This document shows, one piece after another, positions 1 through 42,800 of a DNA stretch of 64,000 nucleotides (the stretch's first letter is position 1; each line of letters starts with the position of its first letter). A program made the position numbers and the translations under genes. This DNA is from Ministeria vibrans ATCC 50519. Lineage: Eukaryota; Protista; Filasterea. The stretch is from contig CALSCP010002018.1 of assembly GCA_943704425.1 (NCBI GenBank), forward strand, positions 1-64,000, read 5' to 3'. The notes under the pieces were generated by a model, which saw only the letters and a program-made list of their open reading frames with translations, was not told where the DNA came from and made no database searches.

Positions 1-1161
1 GTTTGGCGCTTGCTCTACCGGAATGCTGTGACGAGCGCGTCACAGTTGAGGTTGAGGGCCACGCTGGAATCGTTCGCGGTTCGCCCTGGCTTCTCACACC
101 CAATCCAGATCTGGCGCATCGTGCGGTGGCTCTCTCGGGGCACATGGATAGGTTTCACGACCTGACGCCGGAGCAAGTGCGGCATTTGGACAAGGAGGCA
201 CTGTTGACGATGATCGAACAGAGCGAACTTGAAGCGCGCGAGATGCCTCTAGACTACCACGACGTGGTTCGCCTGGTGACGGAGCGGCATCGCTTGAACA
301 ACTCTGTCGTCATGTGGTCGCCGACGCCTGAATACGCCGAGGAGGTCAGGCGGCACGTCAATTGCACGTCGGGATGCACCTCGGCCATTGCCCAGGCTTA
401 CCTGCGACGCCGCGTCGTCTTTGACGGCGTCCTTACACGCGACGAATGCCGCATGCTGATTGAAGCGCAAGAGAAGGCGGGCTCGCCGCCACAGTCACAC
501 GATGTACAAGAGAACCTCTTTGTGCGCACTTTGTACGTCCCTTCACCATGTCCATCTTCCTCTCCTCCCTAGGGCCCTGCGCAAGAAGGACGGCACCACT
601 TTACGCGAGCCGATCTGCGCGATCTTGTCGAGGCCGATGTCTCCCCCGAACGACTTGAGGTGTTTTTGCAGGGTGCAGAGCGAGTCAAGGCGCTCATCAC
701 GGCGCATTTCCAGCCAACACATCCGCTACATTTCGACTTGGTGGACATGACAGGGCGGCGTAAAGAGCCAGCGCACACGGGACTGACCGGACGACATGGA
801 CTGCACGCGGACAATGCGGGTGTGGCCGAAGACGGGTCGTACGAGAAGACTGACGAGCACTGTTGTGCCTGGCGTGAGTATAGTGCACTACTCTATCTTA
901 ATGGAGAAGGGGATCCTGGTAAAGATGTGTTGTCACACAACGAAAAACAAAATAAATATTCTCACTGACCGACCATATACATCGTTTTATGATCAGACTT
1001 TCCGATGGCGGGCGGCGACTTTGCCTTCTCCGAGGACTCGTACGGGTCGGGAGAAGCGCGGCTAGCCCCCAAATGTGGGCGTATGGTTGCCTTCACATCT
1101 GGCTACGAGAACCTTCATGGCGTGTACCCGACCCTGAGTACGACATCCATCTCTGTGTGTA

Positions 1162-1197
<36 letters not shown>

Positions 1198-1435
1198 ATG
1201 TGTACGTTTTGTGTGTGTGATTATTTGTGCATGTATGTATGTATGTGTTGGCAGTTTTTTTTTTATGATTGTGGGGTGGGGTGCGTGTGTAGGCGGCAAG
1301 CGATATGCGATGGCGACGTGGCTCTCGGATGCGTCACATGACGAGCCTCACCACTTTGATGACGACATTGCTTGGTACTTGGATATCCTCGATGGGAGAC
1401 AGCGCGACGACGAAGGCGACGACACAGAAGACTGA
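1..1435 (+). CDS. Prolyl 3-hydroxylase (leprecan/P3H)-like 2OG-Fe(II) oxygenase, 5' end outside window; introns about 522-572, 919-996, 1138-1292
   Basis: Spliced frame gives RVVFDGVLTRDEC...LHADN...REYSALLYLNG..DFPMAGGDFAF...PKCGRMVAFTSGYENLHGVYPTLSGKRYAMATWL. This matches the P3H catalytic domain (HxD...H...R). The introns are GT-AG and keep the frame. Confidence 0.8.
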
Positions 1436-1477
1436 CATGAATGAGTGTAGTGAAAAGGAATGGTTACAAATTTTAAT

Positions 1478-5162
<3,685 letters not shown>

Positions 5163-5704
5163 CTCCGCCGCTCGACTTCTTGACGTGTTCGCTATCTACG
5201 CTTTCTAAGGCTCTCAATTAGGCCAATCAACACCCAAAGCTCTTCTACAACTAATAAACTCGAACTCGAATGAAAATTATGAATAAAAAATTAAAAAATG
5301 ACGCTCTATTTGAGTGTTTTGATGTACTTTCTTTAACTCCAAAATGATATTAAAAAGGACACCGACGCCAAATCATTTCACGGACTAGGTCGTTGATTAT
5401 GAATTCACTTATTCTACACCCTGTACGAGACTGATTGGATTGCGCTTGAAAGTGAAAGTGTGTGTACAAGTTGCTGACAATCAATATCACTCGCCACTAA
5501 TCACACTATTATACTTTTTCCTTTTCTTGTTGAACTTCTCATTCGCCCCTCAACAACTTTCGACGCGCCGCCCAGGTACGTCTATACCTTTGTGGAGTCT
5601 GATATTCAACAATCGTTTGACCCCCCCCTGAAATATGGATAGCTTGTCGCCTCCTTGTAGGTCTTCACAGGGGAAGGGCGGAAACCGCCGGAATTTGACG
5701 TGGA

Positions 5705-8700
5705 ATGCAGGTGGCTCGTCTCTCTCTCTCGACAGCCGCCCCCACGGCCAGTCTTGCGTATCATTCAAGCACAGGCTCGGCCAATGCGGCTCAGTTGCGC
5801 CACGCTGCAGCACAGGCGCGCCAAAGGGTCTCGCTGCGCGATCGTGGCGCTCCTTCGACGGATTGTCGTCTACAACAACATCCGCTCGCACTTCCTCCTG
5901 ATGGTGCGTCGCAGCCCTCTTCAAGCGCCCACGACAAGGACTCGAACGGCACCGTCGACGTTGACGAAGCGCTGCACGGCGTCCACAACGACGACGATAT
6001 TATCGATGGTGAGGAGGACCGTTCAGCATTCAGTCGCGTCCGTTGCCGTCGCAACTGCATCAAGGACACCATGATGCTGGCAAACCTTCTCTTTCTGCTG
6101 CTGGCAGCTGCCGTGTTTGGCATTGTCGTATTTCTCCTCTCGCAAAGCTCGGAATTCCGCACCATGTTTGGCTATGCCAGGTGGGGCATTGCCCTGGCCA
6201 TCGCCATGGCGCTCCTTTGCGTCATCTCTCTTCTCGGCTGCTGCGCCTCGTGGAACGTTCGCTCACGCTGGCTTCGTCGCTATGTCATAACCACCAGCAT
6301 CATGTGTTGCGTCGAATTGGCACTCATTATTGCTGCGTCGGTCGTGTCTCTCAATGACATCGACGAGTACCTTCGCGACAACTTTGTCTCGGCCTCGTTC
6401 GAAGATCGCCAGGCTGTTCAAGCATTCTTCTCGTGCTGTCGCTACGACGCAAACACGGTCACCACCTCGGACAACGACCCGCTCACGTGCTACCACTTTG
6501 GCATTGTGACGCCCGCCAATCTCATCACCACCTTTTGCGCACAGCCCATGCATGACTGGGTGCTCACCTTCACCCGCATCATCGTCATCCTCACCGCCCT
6601 CATCCTCCTCTTTCAACTTATTTTCATTACCATTTCCGTCTGGCTCATCCGGGAGTACCGTCGCAAGCGCACCCACCACGTCACCTTGCAGGTCACCTCC
6701 ACTGGGCTCACCATCATCTCCACCGTGAGCGGGCGTGAGCTCACCCGTCGTGACGCCCCCCTCGCCCGTGCTGCCGCTGGATCCCTTGACGTCGAAACAT
6801 TGCACGGATCAAAGCGCGCGTCGTCGCAATCGTTGGCTCAAGGCAATCGACCATCGAGTGTTGCGGGGCGTCTCAAACATCGACTTGTGGATTTTCTTGG
6901 CTACGACGAGCGAGAACGCGACACGACTAGTTCGGCCGTATGGAACGGCCAAAGTCGACCCGAACGCTTGCTACACAAACGCGAGCGTATTCTCATTCCC
7001 TTCTCGTCGCGTTACTCAATGGCCGCCGAGAAACGCAGGCGGCAGCAGGAGCGCGAGCAACGTCGTCGTCGAGTGCGCCAAGAGCGACAAAGCAGCGAAC
7101 CCCCTGCAACCACATGGCGCACACGGTGTGCCCAGGCGATGCGCGAGTCGCGTCTTGCTCAGTGGATTGCCGTGCGACAACATTCGCGCACGCAGCAGGT
7201 GGAGTCACGCCGTCGTCGCGAGAGCACACAGGGACTTATGATGGCACATCAGGCCAAGAGGAACAAGGTCGATGACGAAGAATCTCTCTCCGTTGTGGGC
7301 AGTCTTCCATCATCGTCAACGGGAGTGTCTACCATGGAGCGCGTGCTCGGTGAACTGGGTCTTGATGAGATGGAGAAGCGCGTTTACTACGCAAGTCGGA
7401 AGCGGAGGATGGCGGGTCACGCCGAATGGAGCGAGTTGGAGGGGCCACGCCTTCGGCTCTCGGCCAACGACATCGATGATGATGACGTCGACACGGAAGA
7501 ACACCGCGTCAGGAGCGTTGTCGTAATTCGTACGGCACTCTCGACACCCACAGATCTAGACGCCATGATCTGTGTCGGCTCAGACGCCACCGATGAGCGT
7601 CTACAAGCGCCTCGATCGAAAAAGAAAAAGCACACGTCAAGGTCGTCCGCCAAACGCAAGGCACCGCCTGATCATGAGACACATGACGTACAGCGCCAAG
7701 ACACAGTGGCTTTACAGTCACAACCGGGCAGTACTGTAACTACGAGTGCGACGCCGACAGTCTGCAAGTGGCACGGCCAGCGCCCAGCCAAGCCAGTTGA
7801 TATTGCCGTAAAGAAGTCGCGTACATCGTCCCAGTCTGTCTCAACAGCAGCCGCTCTTGGTCCCATTGCCACTGCCACCTCCCATGAACAACGCCTTTTT
7901 CGTCGCTCACCCAGCCAGCCCGTCGCCAGCGAGTCACCCGTGGCCACCGTCGCGATGCTCCCGCCTTTTACTTCCGAGCCATCCGACCGCGAACCTCACC
8001 TACACGCATCTGCTCCCCTACACCTCCCACCCGTATCGAAAGCACTCAAGCACCAGCTACAGAAGCAACAGCCTCGCTCGTTGGGCAGTCGCTGGTCTCG
8101 CCGTCGTCTGAGTGCCAGTGAGGTCGATCCTCCTACCAATATTGCACCACCAAAACGTCGCAACATGTCAACGCCCCAATCCCAGAGCGCTAACGCCGTC
8201 ACCGAGAATGCCGCTGCCCTTGGCGCCCATCTCGCTTCTCAAACTGGTTCGTTCTACCGTGACGAGCGCCACGAAGAGACCCGTCGCGCCGTTCAACTGG
8301 AACAGGCTATGCAGACCCGTCTGCGCAATTTACGCACCAGTCCCGACGCAACCAAAGGAGCAACTGCATCACAAGCACCGCCGCCTTCATCACATCAAGC
8401 TCCACTTCTCACCGGCGCGAACTCTACTGCAACACCAACAGCAGCTGCACCTCTACTTGTGAGCTCGCCCCGTCTCGCGCGCCTGCAGAGCACAACATGT
8501 ACTCCCGATCGTCATGAGCGAGAACGCCAAGTGCATGACTGGGTCTCAACCACGGTACTTGCCTCGGCTTCTGCACCACCTTTATCAATGCAGCAGTCAT
8601 CGGAGACACCAGCGGTACCAAAGAAGAAGAAAAGCGTCACGTTTCCGCTTAAGGGTGCAGGTCGAGATCGAGACGAGACCGCCGTGACCGTACTTCCTTT

Positions 8701-8791
8701 GCGTGCTGAAGTGCTGCAACAGGGTCCCGCCACACCCGATCAGTCTCAGAAGAGTCGTCTTATTTCCGATTGGCTTAGTCATCACGAGTAG
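5705..8791 (+). CDS. Tetraspanin-like protein with ~700-aa disordered C-terminal tail (1028-aa single ORF; exact start uncertain)
   Basis: Four TMs: MLANLLFLL, ISLLGCCAS, CCVELALII, LILLFQLIF. EC2 QAFFSCCRY..DPLTCY..FCAQ. The tail is Ser/Pro/Arg rich. Confidence 0.8.
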   Translation: MQVARLSLSTAAPTASLAYHSSTGSANAAQLRHAAAQARQRVSLRDRGAPSTDCRLQQHPLALPPDGASQPSSSAHDKDSNGTVDVDEALHGVHNDDDIIDGEEDRSAFSRVRCRRNCIKDTMMLANLLFLLLAAAVFGIVVFLLSQSSEFRTMFGYARWGIALAIAMALLCVISLLGCCASWNVRSRWLRRYVITTSIMCCVELALIIAASVVSLNDIDEYLRDNFVSASFEDRQAVQAFFSCCRYDANTVTTSDNDPLTCYHFGIVTPANLITTFCAQPMHDWVLTFTRIIVILTALILLFQLIFITISVWLIREYRRKRTHHVTLQVTSTGLTIISTVSGRELTRRDAPLARAAAGSLDVETLHGSKRASSQSLAQGNRPSSVAGRLKHRLVDFLGYDERERDTTSSAVWNGQSRPERLLHKRERILIPFSSRYSMAAEKRRRQQEREQRRRRVRQERQSSEPPATTWRTRCAQAMRESRLAQWIAVRQHSRTQQVESRRRRESTQGLMMAHQAKRNKVDDEESLSVVGSLPSSSTGVSTMERVLGELGLDEMEKRVYYASRKRRMAGHAEWSELEGPRLRLSANDIDDDDVDTEEHRVRSVVVIRTALSTPTDLDAMICVGSDATDERLQAPRSKKKKHTSRSSAKRKAPPDHETHDVQRQDTVALQSQPGSTVTTSATPTVCKWHGQRPAKPVDIAVKKSRTSSQSVSTAAALGPIATATSHEQRLFRRSPSQPVASESPVATVAMLPPFTSEPSDREPHLHASAPLHLPPVSKALKHQLQKQQPRSLGSRWSRRRLSASEVDPPTNIAPPKRRNMSTPQSQSANAVTENAAALGAHLASQTGSFYRDERHEETRRAVQLEQAMQTRLRNLRTSPDATKGATASQAPPPSSHQAPLLTGANSTATPTAAAPLLVSSPRLARLQSTTCTPDRHERERQVHDWVSTTVLASASAPPLSMQQSSETPAVPKKKKSVTFPLKGAGRDRDETAVTVLPLRAEVLQQGPATPDQSQKSRLISDWLSHHE

Positions 8792-9474
8792 ATGGAGTAG
8801 CGCCGTACAAACTGTGTATTTTTAAAAAAATGAAGTCAAAATAGCATAGAGCAGCACAATTGGAACTTCCGTCGTAGAGTTCTTGACGATAATGCCTAAT
8901 GGCATAATGCCCCGAGGAAAGCCCAAAGACCGACTAATACACCCGTGAAAAGAATGTACGGATGTAACGTAAAAATTAATTGCTCTACACACAATACTTC
9001 CGCCATAAGTAGCCCCTAGAAAGATAGGCCAATAAAGCCATACTCCATAGACGGCGGTCGGTGAGAGACTGCCAGACTGGGAGTCGAATCAGTCGATATA
9101 CCCACAAAATACTCTATCGCAGCAAGCGTACGGAGATTTCGAGGAATTCGCGATTGAGGTACGTTTCAGGCACGTACACACCGAGTTCACACCGAGAGCT
9201 TGTGGACCTTATTCGGTGACAGTCACGCCCGCAGCAGCAGCATGAAACTCCTGAGACGGTTCACGTACGGCAGTGGCCAGTGATTGGGACACCATGGGGG
9301 CACTCACTTGGCAGGATGCTGGGGACCCAGCCTGTGCATGTGGCGCGGGCCATTCTACGCTGCGTCAAGTCTCAGTCTCAATCAGAAAAAAAGGTATTGC
9401 CAACTATATTTTTCTCTCTTTCCCTCTCTTCGCCCCCCACTCTTGACGTCATCCACCTCCTGCACCGTTCTGCG

Positions 9475-12400
9475 ATGAAGTCGGTGCTTGTGACTGCGCT
9501 TTTCCTCTTCGTCCTTTTCGGGAATGTGTCCGGTACGCCGTCTCTCGCCCCTCTCCTTCTTCTCTTCTTCTTCCCACGCGCCCTTTCAGTTTTGCACCAC
9601 CGTGGTGCTACCCCTCGAACATTTCGATCCACCCTTGTCTTAGCCACATCTTCTTTTTTTTCTTTTCTGCTTTGGGGGACCTGAACTGTGACGTCACATT
9701 GCTTACGTCTTTTTTTTCTTTTCTTTTTTTTTCTCTCAGCGTTGTTCTGTCCGCTCGACGTCGCCATCACCACCGGCACTACCGTGACCGAAGTAAACCT
9801 CCTTTTGCTTCTCTGCGACGAGGTTAACAGTGTCGTTGTCGACAAGTCGTCCTTTCAAAATCTTCTGCCTCTAAATGGGCTGAAGAAAGTTCGAGGCGCT
9901 GTCACCATTCGCGACAACTCGCAGCTCACTGTGATCCAGCTCAACAACCTTGAAGACGTTGCTGGCAACTTCCGCATCGAGAACAACGCCGACCTCGTTA
10001 CTGTCAACCTGCCGAAACTTCAAATTCTTCAGAAGAATTTCAGTGTGGTTCTCAATAGCAAACTCGATGCTGTCCACCTTGTCGCGCTGAAAAAGGTACG
10101 CCCTCCCCCTGCGCGTCGTGTGTCACGTATACCCCAATGCCCTGCACAACGACTCAAGGCAAACCCCGGTCTAACCCACTGTTTTTTGTTCTCTCCTCGC
10201 AGGTGCAAGGTAGCGCCATCGAAATCGTGGATAACGCAGTGTTGCAAGATTTTGGTGCCAGCAACGTCATATTTGATACATTCGGCGACACCAACTACGA
10301 TCCCCTTCCGCCCCACCTGACTATTCGCGGCAATCCCATTCTCGAGAACATACAGCTTTTCGCGGCCACCAACGACATCGTCATGGACGAGCTGCCGCTC
10401 TACTTTGAACTTGAAGACTTCAACGTCGCAAGCGATTTGTCCAGTTTTTTCCGCTTTGCGGCAGCCTTCAGCCACGTCCACGTTCGCAACTGCGCCAACT
10501 TACAAACATTGCATGGCCTCGAACAGGTCACGAGCGTTTCCGAGTCTATTCTCGTCGAAAATTGCCCGTCACTCACCAAAATCGAAGGGCTCGGTTCGAC
10601 CAGCGTCCAGCTCGTCGAGAGTTCATTCCACTCGCTTGTTCTGCGCAACCTCAGTTCCTTCATCAACCTCGAGACTATTCAGACCTGGCCTGCCGCCACA
10701 CTCGCCCAGCCTCTCCTTCTTGACATCTCCGACTGCCCCATTCTGCTGCACATTGATCATCTGCAGCTCGTGTCGGGCCAACTCGCCAGCCTCGTTCTAC
10801 ACAACTTGCCCATCCTGAACTCGCTCACAGGCATTCAATCTTTCACGGGCGTCCTTGGAAACCTCACTATGTCCCGCCTCGACACCATCGCGAACCTCGG
10901 CGCCTTTGACTCTGGCTTTACTCTCACCTCTGCCTCGCACGTTCGCCTTGAACTTCTTGAGTCGCTCTCCTCGATCCTTGCCTTCCATTCCGTCACCGAC
11001 GTCGCCTCACTGGCCGTTGTCAACTGCTCTTCGTTGACCCAGTTTGGAGGTTTCTCCGCCCTCGTCCACTCACATGGTCCACTTCTGCTGAGCGACCTTC
11101 CTTTGCTCGATCGCTTTACCGCCGTGACCGACTCCGACTTGTTTCCTGCCGTTACCAACGTCGACGGCGACCTCACCCTCGTCGGTTTGCCGCAGTGGAA
11201 TTCCATCTCCGCCACCCTGTTCCCCTTGCTCGTCGCCGTCACCGGCTCCCTTCACCTTGACACGCTGGGCCCGGCCCAACTCAACGGCTTTGCCAACCTT
11301 GCCGTCATATCCGGTGACCTGCGTGTGACCAACCTGAACTCGCTCATTGCCTTTTCCTCCTCCACCTTTGGCCTGCTCAATTCCGTCACCGCCATAGACG
11401 TCTCCTCGTGCGCCAACATCGCTCAAATCGACTCGATCGCCTCGCAGCTCAGCGCCCAGTCCCTCACTGTCGCTGGCTCTGTCACCTTTTCGCAAAACCC
11501 GTCGCTCGCGTCCGTCGACTTCCTCGACAAAGTCTCGTCCATCGGCGGCTCCCTCACCATCGATACGTGCGGTGCACTCGTCACCATTGCCTTCCAGGCG
11601 ACCCTCGCCTCCATCGGTGGCTCCCTCAACATTGCCTCTAACGGCGCCCTCACCACCATCACCAGCCCCACCATTACTATCGGCGGCAACGTCGACATTC
11701 GCCACAACTCCCAGCTCTCCTCCGTCTCTGGTGTTGCTCATTTTAGGACTGGTGGTGTCATTTCCATCACTTACTGCGACGCACTCGGTACAACAACAAA
11801 CCAAAATCAAAACAATCAAACCTCTTACTGTTCGNNNNNNNNNNNNNNNNNNNNNNNNNNNNNNNNNNNNNNNNNNNNNNNNNNNNNNNNNNNNNNNNNN
11901 NNNNNNNNNNNNNNNNNNNNNCTCGCTTCGACCGTCTCCATCGACGCGGTGCGCATCACGGATAATGCAATTTTGGCCTACTTGGACCTCTTTCGGTATA
12001 CTACCGACGACGTAGTCATTGCCAACGACCTGTTGGTTCACAGCAACCCCCTCCTTAACAACGTCACCGAGTCTTTTGCCCACATCTCAAACGTGGAGCT
12101 GCTCAGCGTGTCCGACACAGCCGCACCCTCCCTCGACTTTTCGTCGCTCACCACGGTAAACTCTGACTTTCTGTTGCGCCGTAATGCGGCGAACAGCATC
12201 AACCTGACCAAACTCGACGAGATCCACGGAGTTCTCGACATCTTCGACAACGTCTACTTGAGCGCGATCAGCCTTCCTTCGTGCACCGACATCGACGACA
12301 TTGTGTTGCGCAACAATGCTCAGCTCGAGTCGTTTGTGGCCTCTGGCTCGAGTTTTGTACTGGGCGCTTCTATTGCCGGGCCCATCGACGCACCCAGTGA

Positions 12401-15400
12401 GTGTGTCGATCGTTACTTGGCGCTGAACGATGACATCGACTCGAGCGAGTGCCGCCGTCGCGGCAGTCTTGTCGTCGTTGGTAATCCACTCTTGACGACC
12501 CTCGCGGTGGGCTCCACGCTAGGCATCCAGACAATTCCCGGCTCAGTCTATGTGCACGACACAGCCCTCGTGACGCTCGACGGCCTCAGCACCATCTCGA
12601 GCATCGGTGGCAATTGCTCCTTTTACAACAACACCGAGCTCACTTCGTTCTCCGCACTCGCCTCACTTTCCATTGTCGGTGGCTTCATTGACCTGCTCAA
12701 CAGCCCACTCGTGTGCACCAGCGAACTCGGACCCTTTGCGACACTCCCTATTCGCAACCAATCGCCCCTTGCAACCTCATTTGACTGCGACCTTCATGCG
12801 TTCCTCAGCTCCATCAATACGCAAATAGACATCACCTGGAACCAGCTCGACACGATGCTGCCTGATGCACATGCCCTCGTTCTCAGTAGCGAATGGTCCG
12901 ATGCGAGCACCGTCAAGGCGCTCCCTCAATTCGCATACCTTCTGCAGGAGACTGCGATGACGAGCGTGCTCCAGGAAGTGAGTCGATGGGACGATGCCAT
13001 CGCCGTCATGGACGCCCTTTTCGTCAACGTCACCCTCTTTGCACAGTTCGACATGAGCATCACGAACCAACTGCCGGTCATTGCCGTTACGCTGCTGCAC
13101 AACAAACTCGTTCAGGCGACGAGCACGCTGCAATTGCTCCTGTGCCAGTCGTCCGTCTCCAACGCCATCTTCCCGACCATTCCGCCGCCTAGCCACATCA
13201 ACCTTTTCTCGTCGGCCATCGACTCGCCGCTCATCGACACCAACCTTCCGCCCAGTTCGAGCACTGGAGTGTTTGGCGCTACGCAGTCTTTGGGTCCTGA
13301 CTTCTTTCCCCTCCTATCCTTCTGCCACTTTATCGACGTCGGTGTGTTTCCAAGCAACCCACTGCGCAGTTCGCTTGTAGCCCAACAGAGCGCCAACTAC
13401 ATTGATTCGCCGCTCGTGGTCGCCTACGTGTCGAGCTCTACTCTTCCATACACGGTGCCCAAGTCGTTTACCATTTTCCGTGGCAATCGCACCACTCGGG
13501 CGCAGTGCGTCAACTTTGACCAGACTTCCTCCTCGTGGGTGTCCACTGGTTGTACGACGTCCGTCTCCAATGCGACGCACACCGTCTGTCAGTGCCCCAT
13601 TACGACCGGCAGTGGCATTGCCGTCGGACTCGTGTCGCTCAACCTGCCCTTTAATGTGGAGCTCCCGGTCAATCTGACAGTGAACACGGCCGAATCGGTC
13701 GAGGAGACGGCGTCGTTTCTCAGGCAACTTGTCACGGCAATCCCTTGGACGACGGCGGGCCTGGGTGGCGGTGACAATGGTGGTGATGGTGGTGGCGGTG
13801 GAAATTGGACTTCGCCACAAGACACTGCTACCTCGCTCGTCGAAACATTGTCAGCCATTACCACTTATACGCTGTGGCACGGCATAACACCTGCAGGTCA
13901 GACCGACACGCTGTCGACTCTCGACGAGCTTTTTGAGCCCTCGAGTCTCGACCTAATGAAGAGCGCGAACAAGACTGGCGCGTTGACGGGCGTCGTTGAG
14001 GACGTGGGCTTCTCCATGCTGGTTGATCAGCCGTGTGGGTCGCACCTTACACCGTCGACGACAAGCCGCTTTTCCATGACGGCCGTGAGCTCAACGACGC
14101 CTGCCGGCACCTTCCAGAGTGGGAACACATGGTTTACGCTGCCCGCGGCGTTTTCCTCGAAACTGCCTGCGTCCACGTGTCACAGCCTCAGCTTTGTCGA
14201 GTACAAGATCAATCCATTTGTGTCAGTGGAGGAGGCGCAGGAGACCGAGTCGACTGTGGCGTCGTTTAGCGTGCGCAATGTGACCGTGCGTGACCTCGAC
14301 GAGGCCTCCAGCATCGAGTTTACCCTGACGCGTTTTGACCTGACACGCGACAGTGTGTGTGCCTTCTGGAACACGAATGAGTCGCGCTGGAGCACGGTCG
14401 GCTGCACCACCGTGTCGCGTGTGGGTGCGACTGTGGTGTGTCGCAGCAATCATTTGACCAACTTTGCGCTCATTTTTGATGCGCGTGGCAGCAGCGTAAG
14501 TGCGGCGGTGCCCTTGGAGGTGCTGACGTACATCGCGTGCATCTCCTCCATGGTCTGCTGCTTCCTTTTCGTCGCTGTGTTCCTGTACCTCGAGAAGCTT
14601 CGCTCGGGCCCTATTCTGCTCAACATGCAGCTGTGCGTTGCTCTCTTCCTGACCAATTTGGTGTTCCTGACGGGCATCGAGCGCACGTCGGACGCCAGCT
14701 TGTGCACCGCCATTGCCTTTGTGCTCTACTACCTGTTGCTCGTGTGCTTTCTGTGGATGGTGTGCATTGGCCATCGGCTGTTTGCATCGCTTGTGCGTGT
14801 CGAAGTGAACCTCAACAGCGACGGTCAGTCCGCCATGGTGCATCGCTATTCCCTCTTTGCATGGGGTCTGCCTCTGCTGGCCGTTGCAGTGTGTGCTGCC
14901 GTGGAGTTCTCAACGGACGAGCGTCTCATCGGCTTTGGTTCTGCTTCGAGCTGTTGGATATCGTCAACAATGGGCCTGGTGGGCGCCTTCCTGGTTCCCG
15001 TCGCACTCGCCGTGCTCTTCAACCTGGTCGTCATTATACTTGTGGTGCGTGCGCTCAGTGCCAGTCGTAATCTGCAGAAGGCGTCGATGAACCGGCGCGA
15101 CGTAGTGCGACAGGTTATCATCTACACGGGTCTGGTGGCGTCGCTTGGGCTCACCTGGCTCTTTGGATTTATGGCGATTGCCACTGGTGAGGTTGCCTTC
15201 TGGTATCTCTTTGTGCTGTTCAACGGAGGCCAGGGCATCCTACTCTTTGTGGTGTACGTGATGCGCTCGCGTGTGGTCGAGGCGTTCCGCGAGAAGCGAC
15301 GTGCCTCACCTCGTCGCNNNNNNNACATGGTCCAGAGCGAGTTCACAACGGCCGACGTGACCGAGTCAATGCTGCTCGACGTCGAGGCAAACATGTCGAT

Positions 15401-15713
15401 GTACATGGATGGCGACACGGGTCTGTATATCGAGGACGATATTGGCGAGGACGATATTGGCGAGGACGACGATCTCGGTTCATTCAACCCATTTATGCTC
15501 ACCGAGCGTCGCGCCCCTTCCGCGCTGGGAACTTCCACTGCGAGCGTCAGTGTCGCCGACTTTCACGACGAGGAGATATTCATTGATGCGGACACGGCCG
15601 CGCTAGACAGCGTTGAGGGTGTCACGCAGCAAGTCAGTCACTCTCCCTCACGCCGTCGCGCTTCCACTGACAGCAGCAATCCTAACCTGAGACGCCGCTC
15701 GTCGCGAGTCTAG
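9475..15713 (+). CDS. Adhesion (class B2) GPCR: signal peptide, receptor-L-domain/LRR-like solenoid, two GAIN/GPS units, 7TM; introns 9533-9739, 10096-10202, probably another from ~11788 into the gap
   Basis: Signal MKSVLVTALFLFVLFG. Repeats LxxLxxV.G.LxIxxNxxLxxI. GPS CAFWN..RWSTVGC..VCRSNHLTNFALIF. Seven TMs with secretin-family motifs (YYLLLVCFLWM, AWGLP, CWI, LGLTWLFG, FNGGQG). Confidence 0.88.
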
Positions 15714-15758
15714 TGTGCTCATCAGCTGTACAGAACCCAGACCTTCTCATCTTAATTA

Positions 15759-16638
15759 ATGNNNNNNNGGCATCTACGGAAGAGGACAGGCTCGTGGCCG
15801 AGGTGGACGTTGTGCTGCTGGACATTGAAGGAACGACGACGCCCATCTCGTTTGTCCACGACAGACTGTTCCCCTACGCGCGCGAGAACGTTGACGCATA
15901 CCTGGAGCGTGAGTGGACGACACTGGCGTGTGTGGGCGTCGTGGAGGCGCTGAGGAGGCAGGCGGAGGCGGATCGGGCGGAGGAGAGCGGTGCGTTTGGC
16001 GCAGCGCCCGCTGTTGCGACGGCCGATCCGGCGAGCGTGAGCCGCAATGTGCTGTGGAACATGGCGCAAGACAGGAAGATGACGGCTCTCAAAGAACTCC
16101 AGGGCCTGATTTGGAACGCCGGCTACGCATCGGGCGAACTGAAGGGCGAGTAAGCGAATTCGCGTGCATGTCATTTTGCTCCAACTCCCTATAGGATGTT
16201 TGAAGATGTCCGTGAGGCACTGCAGAAATGGACGGATTCCGGAAAGAAGGTGTACATCTACTCGTCGGGTTCGATTGCGGCGCAGAAACTCATCTTCGGC
16301 TATTCGGATGCTGGCGATCTCCTTCCGCTGCTCAGCGGTCACTTTGACACAACTTCGGGGTCTAAAGTGGACGCGTCCTCATACAAAGCCATCTGTGCAG
16401 CGATCGGAGTTGATCCGGCGCGTCTTTTGTTTGCGACAGACAACATTCGAGGTTCGGCTACTCTTTAGTGTTTGCACTGCTCTCACACAGAACTCACACT
16501 ATCATAGAGGCATACGCATCACGGTCGGCGGGCAACGTGGTCTGCGTGGCAGTGCGCCCCGGCAACGCCCCACTTTCCTCCGCCGACGCCTCCACCTTCC
16601 CTTTAGTCTCCTCCCTTCTCGATTCGCGCATTCATTGA
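15759..16638 (+). CDS. ENOPH1: Enolase-phosphatase E1 (MtnC/Utr4, HAD family, methionine salvage); 3 exons; start lies next to an N gap
   Basis: DIEGTTTPISFVHDRLFPYAR, DRKMTALKELQGLIW, YIYSSGSIAAQKLIF, GHFDT, RPGNAP. Confidence 0.92.
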
Positions 16639-16895
16639 AATAGTATTATATTGTTATCTTCTGTTACCTTCTTCTTTTCTTCAACAAGCATCATTCGTTT
16701 CTGCTTCAATATCTATTTTCTTTTCAATCACTAAAGCTATATGTTGCCCGTGTGCATTCAACTCATTATTTTGGATTCGTCTTTTTTGAGGGGGGAGACT
16801 TTTTACACGCATTAATTTTATTTTAGAGCGACACGAAAGAGAGTAGACGATAAACATAGTATAGTGTTACGATTAGAAGGGGGATGCTTGTTGTT

Positions 16896-17325
16896 GAGGA
16901 TGAATGTCGCACAACGCTCACCTTTGACCGCGTAGATCGCCATTCAAAAAGATGGGGTTGCCGCAGTGACCGGAGGATTGCAGAGGAACACACACAGCAC
17001 ACATCCCCCATATTTTGCAGACACGCCATGAACAGCAAACACCCGGGGAGGGAGTCCCAGCAATATACCATCTCACCAACACTCACTCTGTGTCATTACT
17101 ATTAATACTTTTTTTTTCAACACCAAAATATCAAAGACGAAGACTTAGACACAGACATAACACACAAACATAAACACAAACAAACAATGATGCTCCCCAA
17201 ATGTCAAACACAAAAACACCAAAAAGAAGGACGCGTTTTCCTCTCTGCAATCTCCTTTGATCACTGTGCGACCACCATTTATGAATGGCGACCTACCGTG
17301 TCAAGGAGAGCGCAGGCGCGCCCTC
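16896..17325 (-). other. Long imperfect RNA hairpin / inverted repeat immediately 3' of the eIF5A stop
   Basis: 17282-17296 pairs with 16932-16946 (15 bp). Further helices lie on both sides, many needing G:U pairs on the minus strand. Confidence 0.7.
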
Positions 17326-17334
17326 GGAAGGTGT

Positions 17335-18003
17335 TCACTTTGGCGCCTTTTCGGCGCGGACAGTGGTGATGCCCTCTTGCTCACGACCGTCGCTGAACTC
17401 CACGCCAATGTAGCCGACGTAGCACGTCTGGTCATAGTCCTCGAGCACGTCCTACGTATATCCCATACAATATGAGAATAACACAGTAACCAAAATCATT
17501 ATAATTATTACGCCAATGCGCTGGGCCAGCTTTTCGTTGGACACGCGAATAGTGTGCATGTCCTTGCCAGACTTTGACATGGCACTGACGTAATCGTCCT
17601 CGTCAATGCTGATGGCGATAAGATCGTAAATTTTCACATTCGGCTTGCTCATTTGCGAGTGGTGATTGAACATATCCTCGACCTATTATTAGTGAATGAA
17701 TAATAGTTATTAGTTATTAGTTATTATTATTATTATTATTATTATTAATTTTTATACTTATGAGGTTTTCTTTTAAAACTTATTAGTATTATTGTTAATG
17801 CTCTTGAAAATCATGCTAATCAGTATATAGTATGCGTGTGTGCAAACCTTTTTTCCCGTAAAAATGTCAATGGCGACCACAGTCTTCTTGGCGGCGCCGT
17901 GTTTTCCAGACGAGAAAGTGCTCACATCGACTAGTTTAACCGCTCGACGATCAATCTCCATGATGAGACCCGTTTTGAGTTCAGCAAACTCCACACGAGA
18001 CAT
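17335..18003 (-). CDS. EIF5A: Divergent translation factor eIF5A, 147 aa; exons 17848-18003, 17512-17682, 17335-17451
   Basis: KLVDVSTFSSGKHGAAKKTVVAIDIFTGKK..ED...PNV..YDLI.IDEDDYVSAM; the hypusine Lys in GKHG is retained. Confidence 0.85.
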
Positions 18004-18109
18004 TGTGTATGACAGTGTTGTAAAAAAAGAAGGTGTTTGTTGGTTGAAAAGGGGAAAATGAGTGATGAAGAGGATTGCGAATTCACAGGATGCAGGATAC
18101 CAAAAATTA

Positions 18110-18143: not shown

Positions 18144-18829
18144 GACGACACTCGCCACTTGTGACGAGTCAAATCATGATGACAGATCAGCAAGAATAAC
18201 GGGGCTGTTTGACTATCAAGACTAGCTCGCGATCGTTTGCAATCGTGACCAGAGCTTCCAATAGAGTGAAAAGGTAAAATACTCAGTGCGAGCTAGTTTG
18301 ATTCCGATTTTTTTTTTTTTTTTTTTTACTGTTGCCTTTAATTTACAGTATAACTAGTACAGACAGTACTTTCATGCGCAAAATTACGCTCAACACCTGC
18401 ATATTTTAGACTTACTAAGTGAAGAACTGTACGATGACACTCACATAATAATAGACTTCTCTCGATTCTTCCGCTGACTGTGTTGGGCCTTGGGGGTCTA
18501 TACTCTATACCTCGGCTGCAATGCGCTCCCGTGGTGCACGGGGAGGAAGGGCGGAGGGGGCAGAGCTGCAGAGTACAGATCGGCTGATGCGCTTGTTGTC
18601 TTGACTGTGTGTTAGGATAGTAATCCAAATCAAGACTCGAGTCAAACAAAAAGTTCAATTTTATTTTTATTTTCCTTTTAATTAATATTGTGAAACACCG
18701 ACAGTAAAGTCAATCATAGGGCAAACATAGGCCATAGCTAAAGAGGTACTATTTCTACTAATGAACAGAGTCATTATCTCAAGTTCTCAAATCTCAAAAG
18801 TCAAAATTCAAATTTTTGTTGTCTTACAG

Positions 18830-39800: not shown

Positions 39801-42800
39801 GGCATCCGTCGAAAGGGTGGATGTATCTGTGTCGCTGTCGCTGTCGTCCGAGTCGTCGTCGTCGTCACCACGTGTCTGCTCTGTCCCTTTACCGGAAGAA
39901 GACACACCACTGCCAGTCGCACCGCTAGCCGTTGTGGCAGTGGATGAACTTGCGAGTGTTTCGGCCGTCGAAACGAGCTCCTTGACGACAGCGGACGCGA
40001 CATCGTTGGCCACCTGTGAGCGGCGGGTGGCCAGGTCCTCGTACGCGCCAATGTCGTGTTCTGTGTTGAGCGAGTCAACATGAAGCATGTCGCGCAAGCT
40101 GTGGAGCTCGTCGGCAATGCGTGTACGGCTCTTGGTGGTGTGTACCGCCGTGGGGTCGACAAAGACGGGCTCGAAATTTTGGAAGAAATGTAAGCCACGC
40201 AGGGGTTCGAGTCCATCGGCGTCCTCTGCAAGAAGAGTCGTGTCGAAGAGACGACGCATGGAGAAGGACGAGGCGACGGGTTCTTTGGCGCCACCAATAG
40301 CGTGCAGCGTGTGACGACGACGGCGTTGTTGCGAATCATTGTGTCGACCCGAACCACTGTCAGAGTTGCGCTGGCGCGAGGAGGAACGCTGCTGCTGCTG
40401 TTGTTGTTGTTGCTGCTGCTGCTGTCGAGACTGCGCACCACTCTCGCTGCGGGTGCTGTTGGTGCTGTCCTGACGGCGGCGTTGCTGAGTGGGTCCGCCG
40501 TTGCCCGACGACGCAGTACGATTCCGACTTCGACCGGTCCTTGAGTCTCGCGAAGCCCCATCATCATCATCGTCATCATCATCACCATCACCATCACCAT
40601 CATCATCATCGGCATCGTCGTCGTTGTCGTCATCGTCGCCAGCCCCGCCGGCGTCGTCCTCCTGCCCAGCACGCCCGTTGTTGCTGTCATCGCCGTTCGC
40701 TTCTGCGCGATTGGTCGTCCCTTGGCCCTCGTCGTCGTCGTTGTCCCCGCCTCCTTCGCTGTTGGACATCACTACGCTAAGCACCAACTGTACGATTGAA
40801 AAGCGGAGGTTATCAGTGAAAGTGGGATATGAAAAAGGTCAAAAAAAAAACGAGAAAAAAAAAAAAAAAAAAAAAAAAGAGTAACGTACAGTACACTCGT
40901 TCAGTGCTGCTGCTGTCGCAGTTCGCTTCTCAGACAGCTCTTGCATATTTGACTGTATCACAAAAGAGAAACAAAAATTGAGCACAGACCTCTCCTCTCT
41001 CTCTCTCTCTCTCTCCAACACGTCTTTTTTCTTTCCCCATCACTTTGTATGTACTCCCTCCTTTACTTTACCTTCAGATTGGACTCGCATAGATATCTCT
41101 CATCTTCAAGCAACACAATGCTCTCCTTGAGACGGTAGTTCTCAGTGAGCAGTGCGACTCGCTCATCAGTGTCGCTCTCCGGTTTGCTCTCGTGCGACTG
41201 ATTGTGGCTGTGCGAGTTGTTGGGATTGTTGTTGCTGTGTTGGTGAGGGGGGTTGTTTGAATTGGAGGTGTCTGTGCTGGCTTCCACCAGTGCCTCCCGG
41301 TCCCGACGGAAGTGGTGCTCGCCGCGTGCACGGTAAAAGTCCACTTGACGCTCTAACCTGCGCAGCGAGTCGATCATCTTGGCTTCGTTTCCTGCAACAA
41401 GCACTGGCGGCTCGCCCACCGACTCGTACTCCCCGACAATGTCTGACAGGCGCGCCAGTGTTACTGCAAGCTCACGTGACACCGCGTACGCCTCGGCAAG
41501 CGCCGCAATCGCCACATGGGCATCATCCGGTACCATCACCACGCGATCGCCCAGCACCCCACCACTACTACCACCACCCGCGCCACCACCAGACCCACTC
41601 GACGACGCACTGACCATCATCGACACACTGCGCCCTCCTTTGTCCTTCTTGTACAGCGACCCTGTCTTACTAGCCCCAGTAATGCCTCCTCCACTTGCAC
41701 TGTGGCCACCAACACTACTACTGATCGAGTAGGTTCCACCAGCATTGCGCACGGCAATCTCCGTGTCGCGCACACTCACTACCTCCTTGCCACCAACCGA
41801 CTTGCGCACAGGCTTCCGTCGTACCACACCATCCTCTTCGACAACAACACGCCCGCGCACAGCATGATGCGTCACATTCTGCGTCGACTCCACCACATCA
41901 ACCCCAAACTGGAATTCGTCGCTCGTCGTAAGCTCCACCGCTTCGCTCACTTTAAGCGACTCAGCCAGTCGTCGCCCGTTCACAAACGTCCCGTTGCTAC
42001 TCTTTGTGTCCCGCACAAACAGCCGTGCATCTTCAATCCACAGCTCAGCATGAGCTCGTGACAACACTGGAGGGGAAAAGATGTGTGTCAATATAATTAT
42101 TATAATTATAATTAAAAAAAATTAATAAAGAACACAGCTCATAATTACAATAATAATAATATAAACAAGAGAGTTGGACAATTCATTGCAAACGAAATCA
42201 TTTATACCTTTGCTGTCAAACATGGCGTTGTCTTCGGCCGGTTTGGGCTTGCCTACGCTCCGACCCACTTTGATGATTTGCTGTGGTCGGAACTGAAGTC
42301 GGCGTGTCTGAAAGGCGCCCTCATCGCGCGGCTCAAGATAAATGACAAGGGCGGAGGGTGAGTGAGTCGGCGTGGATACTTCTTCCTTGGGGATCGTTGG
42401 TGGAGTGACCAGCGGAGTGGCCGCCGGGGCATTCTCCGCCACGGTGGCTCGTGCGGCAGAGATGCCCGTCGAGGACAACTCGTGGGCTGTGGCAGCGGGG
42501 TCTTCTTGGAGTGTGGCAAGCGAGGCAGAGCGCTCGCGTCCGGTCTCACAGTCTTCGCTGGTAGTGCGTGTCTGCGTGTCGCTCTCAGAGCTCTCGCGTG
42601 GCTCATCTTCGGTTCGGTCTCTGTCGTCGCCGCCGTCTACACCAAAGGGCGTCGACTCGCCATCGGGGATGGGCGTTGATCCTGGCTCTATGTGGACGTA
42701 CGGCGTCAGCATTGGCAATTCGTTCAAACGCGCGATAGGAACAGGAGAGACGGAAAAACACATCCGAATCTACGAATCTTGCAGTACGGAAAAACGTCGC

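What the first reader, a model, noticed from the sequence alone, without database searches (positions are those of the whole stretch)
16896..17337. ~430-nt long-range G:U-rich hairpin beginning 9 nt after the eIF5A UGA
Seen on the minus (mRNA) strand: UGA-ACACCUUCC, then nested helices GAGGG/UCCUC, CGCG/UGUG, GCGCUC/GAGCGU, UUGAC/GUCAA, GUAGGUCGCCAUUCA/UGAAUGGCGAUCUAC (15 bp), CAGUGAUC/GGUCACUG, GAUUGCAGAG/CUCUGCAAUC, CGCGUCCUUC/GGGGGAUGUG and GACAU/GUGUC, closing a U-rich loop of ~150 nt. Many arm differences are G:U-compatible only on this strand, which suggests selection on RNA structure rather than a decayed DNA inversion. Known: structures ~8-10 nt after a stop stimulate readthrough in retroviruses and alphaviruses, and eIF5A itself promotes termination. 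Inference: a readthrough or termination-sensing autoregulatory element (readthrough adds X-TPSEGAPALSLTR), or a dsRNA localisation, editing or small-RNA precursor.
Basis: partly seen in the sequence, partly recalled or inferred. Interest (0 to 1): 0.78.

Follow-up and report, generated by a model that had tools for sequence, protein, structure and literature searches.

The report
Long fold-back in eIF5A-like 3'UTR
The spliced messenger RNA of a likely eIF5A-family translation-factor gene in a single-celled eukaryote carries, behind its stop codon, a single-copy inverted repeat predicted to fold into a rod of about 90 base pairs, which would most likely be cut as double-stranded RNA and so tune the gene's own output, rather than make ribosomes read through the stop.

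Summary
The hairpin is real. Window 16896-17337 folds at -162.6 kcal/mol (z -6.0; 0 of 100 shuffles), ranks first of 137 tiles and is the best non-low-complexity inverted repeat in the window. Spliced RNA contigs run from the coding exons through both arms to a poly(A) end near 16782. No second copy appeared in a deep run.

The G:U argument fails. The opposite strand folds as well (z -6.4), G:U pairs match base composition, and neutral decay gives the strand difference in 5-36% of matched simulations. Readthrough is weakly supported: UGA-A context, 13 added codons, no 3'UTR intron, and an ambiguous helix at +9.

No relative was found, so covariation is untested, and the eIF5A label rests on a motif read by eye. 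Best reading (0.35): an old inverted duplication whose near-perfect basal duplex is a Dicer-type substrate acting on its own mRNA, like Chlamydomonas 3'UTR fold-backs. A functionless relic is nearly as likely (0.3). Known kind; interest 0.3.

The parts
17848..18003 (-). eIF5A-like CDS exon 1, with a hypusine-loop-like motif that looks divergent (judged by eye against recalled knowledge)
   Evidence: ORF; gene model; splice joint skipping 165 nt in RNA contigs. Family not tested by a profile search.
17512..17682 (-). CDS exon 2
   Evidence: joints 17680/17846 and 17450/17511 with GT..AG ends on the minus strand
17335..17451 (-). CDS exon 3 ending in UGA (17337-17335); whole CDS 444 nt, 147 codons plus stop
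16782..17334 (-). 3'UTR, about 553 nt, unspliced
   Evidence: X8 record 12 and X12 record 2 span the spliced CDS and the whole UTR; a 17-nt poly(T) loose end at 16782 in X8; contigs of X12, X16 and X15 end at 16790
17226..17325 (-). proximal (5') arm; firm pairing from 17320, ambiguous GAGGG at 17325-17321
16896..17009 (-). distal (3') arm
17282..17313 (-). best-paired segment, 30 of 32 nt paired, including the 15-bp helix 17296-17282; the best 21-mer is 17302-17282, with one unpaired base on each side
16914..16946 (-). partner of the best-paired segment; a 21-mer read from 16946 would begin with U
   Evidence: sequence
17038..17205 (-). inner domain: 13-bp helix 17205-17193/17050-17038 closing a U-rich multiloop with two sub-hairpins
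   Evidence: P 0.93
17293..17334 (-). in-frame readthrough stretch: 13 codons, then UAG (17295-17293) inside the 15-bp helix
16817..16822 (-). AAUAAA about 30 nt upstream of the poly(A) end
   Evidence: read directly
16788..16792 (-). CCCUC next to the poly(A) site, the preferred predicted partner of GAGGG at +9
   Evidence: P 0.52; in the MFE

Best explanation
The 3'UTR of this spliced, polyadenylated mRNA holds a single-copy imperfect inverted repeat, likely left by an old local inverted duplication, that is predicted to fold into a rod of about 90 bp whose near-perfect basal duplex would be cut by a Dicer-like RNase III, which would lower the level of the host mRNA and perhaps release a 21-nt RNA. 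Shown: the repeat, its excess over chance, both arms in one spliced contig, and no close second copy among the contigs laid. Predicted: the fold. Inferred: origin by duplication, presence of a Dicer in this organism, cleavage, and any effect on the mRNA.
For: Both arms are in the mature mRNA. The best-paired part is Dicer-product sized: 30 of 32 nt paired at 17313-17282, and the best 21-mer has one unpaired base on each side. It lies 11 nt above an internal loop and 18 nt above the firm stem base, close to recalled lower-stem rules of animal and plant pri-miRNA cutting (noticed after the fact). Precedent: in Chlamydomonas, DCL3 cuts fold-backs in the UTRs of coding mRNAs and lowers them; of 118 DCL3-sensitive genes, 8 have miRNA and 21 have siRNA precursors in 3'UTRs (PMC4817775, abstract and section 8). 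miRNAs occur in unicellular amoebae (PMC11014262, passages) and in introns and UTRs in Sphaeroforma (PMC6206976, passages). The 2 strain variants that fall in firm helices both keep a pair (17007 G:U to A-U; 17306 C-G to U:G); 59% of random transitions would, so this is weak.
Against: No small-RNA data and no genome, so neither a Dicer gene nor a product was seen. The fold-back spans 365-413 nt, far above the mean miRNA fold-backs of 132-170 nt quoted for plants, algae and slime moulds (PMC4513859, passage). Uncut polyadenylated contigs are recovered. There is no statistical sign of selection on the mRNA strand: 14 of 256 and 29 of 273 symmetric neutral simulations, and 81 of 309 and 105 of 295 with a mild strand bias, reach the observed -17 kcal/mol difference. 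The one 20/22 antisense match in the window lies in a different register (17311-17290) from the best duplex.
Confidence: 0.35

Rival explanations
1. A functionless relic: an old inverted duplication, or a lone decayed fold-back element, that is transcribed and folds as a by-product.
For: Equal z on both strands. G:U is not above composition. Neutral decay reproduces the strand difference in 5-36% of matched simulations. The arms are only 74% alike, with many gaps. Three distinct variants lie inside the 430 nt, against one in the 444-nt CDS. No Rfam match near a gathering score.
Against: Mild trend towards the mRNA strand (-116.9 vs -99.9 kcal/mol; p about 0.05-0.11 under symmetric mutation). 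Both variants in firm helices keep pairing. The X6/X14 haplotype has 4 substitutions in the neighbouring 115-nt spacer and none in the UTR, though this is one cluster and not independent events.
Confidence: 0.3
2. The fold keeps the stop codon physically close to the poly(A) tail, so a 553-nt UTR terminates normally and escapes long-UTR nonsense-mediated decay; pairing would be kept for that reason.
For: The rod takes up about 430 of 553 nt, and the +9 GAGGG prefers a partner just upstream of the poly(A) tail (P 0.52). Engineered fold-backs suppress NMD in human cells (PMC2689704, abstract). The convergent neighbour's poly(A) lies at 16666, about 28 nt after its stop, so 553 nt may be long for this organism (one comparison only).
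Against: Partly circular: the hairpin is what makes the UTR long, so this explains tolerance more than purpose. The closing helix has 5 bp. NMD in this lineage is untested.
Confidence: 0.15
3. The stem stimulates readthrough of the UGA (or slows termination), giving a 14-residue extension or a termination-sensing feedback on an eIF5A-family factor.
For: Pairing can begin 9 nt after the stop, like the 8-12-nt spacers before long-looped stems in alphaviruses and the 268-nt-loop stem of Drosophila kelch (PMC3159437, passages). eIF5A promotes termination (PMC9661723, passage).
Against: The context is UGA-ACA, not UGA-CUA/CGG, UAG-CAR-YYA or UAG-G. The firm stem starts at +14. Only 13 codons are added, and the +1 and -1 frames give 11 and 19. 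The next stop is about 500 nt from the poly(A) site and there is no UTR intron, unlike plant eRF1-1 (PMC5397192, section 13). No canonical SECIS pattern. Any fold that fills a UTR starts near the stop.
Confidence: 0.1
4. A member of an active multicopy MITE family inserted behind the stop.
For: Geometry of long terminal inverted arms around a spacer.
Against: In the deep run X4 one contig at depth 309.5 spans 16000-17706 and nothing else was laid there at 80% likeness, while a 35-nt repeat at 18581-18615 drew at least five extra contigs. One hit in the window. The only flanking direct repeat of 5 nt or more does not abut the ends. Copies under 80% alike are not excluded.
Confidence: 0.05

Closest known systems
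Chlamydomonas DCL3-cleaved miRNA/siRNA fold-backs in 3'UTRs of coding mRNAs (Valli et al. 2016, PMC4817775; abstract and section 8 read)
   Same: A long imperfect stem-loop embedded in the 3'UTR of a protein-coding mRNA of a unicellular eukaryote, able to act in cis on its host mRNA.
   Different: No cleavage, small RNA or Dicer is shown here; a different, unplaced lineage; the fold-back is much longer than typical miRNA precursors.
3' stem-loop readthrough stimulators of alphaviruses and Drosophila kelch/headcase (Firth et al. 2011, PMC3159437; passages read)
   Same: UGA, a spacer of 9-14 nt, then a stem with a very long inner region.
   Different: The +4 base is A, not C; the extension is 13 codons rather than a long conserved frame; no conservation data; the stem is about 90 bp rather than 11-12 bp.
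Plant eRF1-1 readthrough-NMD autoregulatory 3'UTR (Nyiko et al. 2017, PMC5397192; abstract and section 13 read)
   Same: A termination-related factor with a long 3'UTR.
   Different: No CARYYA context, no 3'UTR intron, and the next stop is far from the poly(A) site.
Fold-back 3'UTRs that suppress NMD (Eberle et al. 2008, PMC2689704; abstract read)
   Same: Base pairing predicted to bring the poly(A) tail near the stop.
   Different: Those were engineered constructs in human cells; here the pairing is natural and the closing helix is short and ambiguous.

Membership tests
miRNA/hpRNA precursor | At least 15 nt of a ~21-mer pair with the opposite arm (criterion i in PMC4513859) | tested here: met
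   20 of 21 paired at 17302-17282
miRNA/hpRNA precursor | Precisely cut 5p and 3p products with 2-nt 3' overhangs | not testable with these tools
   only assembled long-RNA contigs were available
miRNA/hpRNA precursor | Dicer and Argonaute present in the organism | not testable with these tools
   no whole genome held
miRNA/hpRNA precursor | Not another structured ncRNA | tested here: met
   3 Rfam matches at E up to 10, all far below gathering score
miRNA/hpRNA precursor | Fold-back length in the usual range (means 82-170 nt) | tested here: not met
   365-413 nt span against PMC4513859; this counts against a typical pre-miRNA, not against a long hairpin Dicer substrate
Structure-stimulated readthrough site | Leaky context (UGA-CUA/CGG, UAG-CAR-YYA or UAG-G) | tested here: not met
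   UGA-ACA against PMC3159437
Structure-stimulated readthrough site | Stem starting about 7-12 nt after the stop | tested here: inconclusive
   +9 helix is paired, but with alternative partners (0.52/0.22); firm stem at +14
Structure-stimulated readthrough site | Conserved extension and covarying stem; measured readthrough | not testable with these tools
   no relative found; needs ribosome profiling or a reporter
eRF1-type readthrough-NMD circuit | [quoted passage not shown] | tested here: not met
   UTR unspliced in RNA contigs; next stop at 17295-17293
Eukaryotic SECIS | RUGA core, 10-13-nt stem, AA, then GA | tested here: not met
   0 matches to the two strict patterns; 2 to a loose pattern without the leading purine
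MITE | Multiple genomic copies and target-site duplication | tested here: not met
   single contig at the same depth as its flanks in X4; no abutting direct repeat; diverged copies not excluded
eIF5A (host gene) | Profile match and hypusine-loop lysine | not tested
   no profile or homolog result for this protein; a hypusine-loop-like motif and a fitting length (147 aa) were judged by eye against recalled knowledge

The most novel reading that the evidence does not exclude
A divergent eIF5A-family gene senses termination efficiency through its own 3'UTR. A terminating ribosome leaves the rod intact, whereas readthrough to the UAG inside the 15-bp helix melts the basal duplex and switches the mRNA between a cut and a protected state: an intron-free feedback loop on a termination-promoting factor. 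I saw no such circuit for eIF5A in the listings of three paper searches.
Probability: 0.06. Interest if true: 0.75.

Novelty: new member of a known kind. Interest (0 to 1): 0.3.

Why it matters
If it is diced, it would be a small-RNA-hosting 3'UTR on a translation-factor mRNA in a protist lineage with no close relative in the collections searched, extending the Chlamydomonas pattern; it also gives an exact prediction for small-RNA sequencing. If readthrough couples to the fold, it would be an eIF5A feedback circuit that I did not find in the papers searched. As it stands it is a real but unassigned long UTR hairpin, a common class of feature.

Tried and rejected
Whole genome: none held. Rfam: 3 sub-threshold matches, rejected. 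Runs: 22 listed, none on record as RNA; 8 of the 22 were laid, and splicing plus poly(A) show mRNA origin for X8, X12, X15 and X16. Relatives for covariation: the TRIP4-like exon gave itself and one 35% hit; the TRAP-beta-like exon gave only itself; both searches were limited by length. The exon of the convergent neighbour gave 80 kept loci of 194, best 65% identity, and none of these 80 matched the UTR at E below 0.69. A 19-nt arm pattern hit 3 viral contigs with no extension beyond 19-20 nt: chance. Lineage: the AAA exon's best hits were a eukprot gene model labelled Nk52 (recalled as an ichthyosporean) and a truncated MMETSP label (recalled as an amoeba), then fungi, amoebae and plants: unresolved. 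The first inverted-repeat scan was too permissive and was replaced. The first simulation timed out and was rerun smaller. SECIS and frameshift readings were rejected. The 29-nt loose end at 18026 in X8 has no AG acceptor, so trans-splicing was rejected and a chimera is likely. Earlier findings: nothing near or by sequence. Poly(A) caveat: six genomic A's at 16787-16782 could prime oligo-dT; either way the transcript passes the distal arm. No supplements were consulted.

Full report
Setting. The window is eukaryotic: Pfam finds an adhesion-type GPCR, a tetraspanin, TRIP4, HECT, cyclin and AAA domains in 10 of 17 frames scanned. No genome is held. The lineage is unresolved and isolated: two neighbouring exons found only themselves, plus one 35% hit, in length-limited searches of 5.8 billion proteins. 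The host gene lies on the minus strand, with exons 18003-17848, 17682-17512 and 17451-17335; both introns are removed in RNA contigs. Its eIF5A label rests on length and a hypusine-loop-like motif read by eye against recalled knowledge. No profile test was obtained, and the loop looks divergent, so it may be a paralog.

Observation. The hairpin is real. The minus strand folds at -162.6 kcal/mol, z -5.97, 0 of 100 shuffles. It is first of 137 tiles on both strands (tiles phased on the element) and the best dust-filtered local inverted repeat in the window (E 2.4e-4). The firm stem starts 14 nt after the UGA and has 79 bp, plus 13 bp in the inner helix.

Is it in the mRNA? Yes. Single spliced contigs in X8 and X12 (one study) run from exon 1 to 16782 and 16790, and X8 ends in poly(A). 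Contigs of X16 and X15 (two further studies) also stop at 16790, while the genomic-type contigs of X4, X6 and X14 go on. AAUAAA lies about 30 nt upstream. Internal priming on six genomic A's cannot be excluded, and contigs cannot show what share of molecules carries both arms.

Is it a multicopy element? No sign of it. In X4 a single contig covers the hairpin at the same depth as its flanks, whereas a nearby 35-nt repeat drew several contigs at up to 18-fold depth. No target-site duplication abuts the ends.

Is it selected as RNA? Not shown. The + strand folds equally well relative to its shuffles (z -6.39). Under scoring that credits G:U and A:C alike, the arms give 21-24 G:U against 10-11 A:C, where composition predicts 64% G:U, and the excess sits in the GU-rich inner part. 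The arms pair 17 kcal/mol better on the mRNA strand. Simulated neutral decay reaches this in 14 of 256 and 29 of 273 matched cases with symmetric mutation, and in 81 of 309 and 105 of 295 with a 1.8-fold strand bias; the simulation rates were my assumptions. Three variants fall in the hairpin among the 8 runs laid: two in firm helices keep a pair (one gains 0.8, one loses 3.0 kcal/mol), and the third is unpaired in the full-UTR fold. That is a weak hint only. Covariation could not be tested: none of the 80 neighbour-gene loci matched the UTR.

Mechanism. Readthrough has the right rough geometry (PMC3159437) and eIF5A aids termination (PMC9661723). But the context is UGA-A, only 13 codons follow, there is no SECIS, and the plant eRF1 layout of leaky context, UTR intron and safe next stop is absent. 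What the anatomy does offer is a near-perfect 32-nt duplex near the stem base, with a 21-mer paired at 20 positions. In Chlamydomonas such 3'UTR fold-backs are cut by DCL3 and lower their host mRNAs (PMC4817775), and miRNA hairpins occur in unicellular amoebae and in ichthyosporean UTRs. I therefore commit, at 0.35, to an old inverted duplication that acts as a Dicer-type substrate in cis. Dicer, cleavage and effect are all inferred, and the span is more than twice typical miRNA fold-backs. A functionless relic is nearly as likely (0.3). Fold-back protection from long-UTR decay (0.15; PMC2689704), readthrough (0.1) and a MITE (0.05) follow.

A side result. A 22-mer of the 5' arm (17311-17290) is antisense at 20 of 22 positions to 41120-41141, in the frame of an FHA-domain gene; 0 of 100 shuffled arm pairs reached 20. 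The match was found after the fact, does not extend, lies off the best duplex register, and there is no reason for a target to sit in the same window. I treat it as a lead only.

Papers. Passages or single sections were read for PMC11014262, PMC3159437, PMC9661723, PMC6206976, PMC4513859, PMC4817775 and PMC5397192; only the abstract for PMC2689704; no supplements. Listings of three searches showed no report of an eIF5A 3'UTR structure or readthrough circuit; the library lacks most subscription papers.

Verdict. Observation confirmed; interpretation partly supported; new member of a known kind; interest 0.3.

Noticed in passing
window 18581-18615: A 35-nt piece in the divergent promoter region between the eIF5A-like and TRIP4-like genes belongs to a multicopy family: contigs at depth up to 5552 against about 300 in X4, shared loose ends on both sides, also seen in RNA-type runs; one copy in the window. 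It may be a SINE/MITE relic or a small-RNA gene family.
   Followed up: partly
window 41120-41141 vs 17290-17311: 20 of 22 antisense match between the hairpin's 5' arm and the coding frame of an FHA-domain gene; 0 of 100 shuffles as good; found after the fact.
   Followed up: partly
window 15713-16666 (+): The convergent neighbour looks like enolase-phosphatase E1 of methionine salvage (recalled; its first exon had no Pfam hit). It is spliced, with poly(A) at 16666, 115 nt from the eIF5A-like 3' end with no overlap. Both genes touch polyamine/SAM metabolism, which may be coincidence.
   Followed up: partly
window 17627: A coding variant in exon 2 (X4, X6, X8, X15 carry it; X12 does not), at a second codon position, so it changes the residue.
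   Followed up: no
window 16679-16764: Four substitutions cluster in the short spacer between the two poly(A) sites in X6 and X14, with none in the adjacent UTR.
   Followed up: partly
window 18026: The X8 transcript contig carries 29 foreign bases at its 5' end, at a site without an AG acceptor; probably a chimera.
   Followed up: partly
window 10059-15713 (+): A long open frame (1884 codons, with N gaps) encoding an adhesion-type GPCR with Receptor-L/leucine-rich repeats, GPS and 7tm_2 domains.
   Followed up: no
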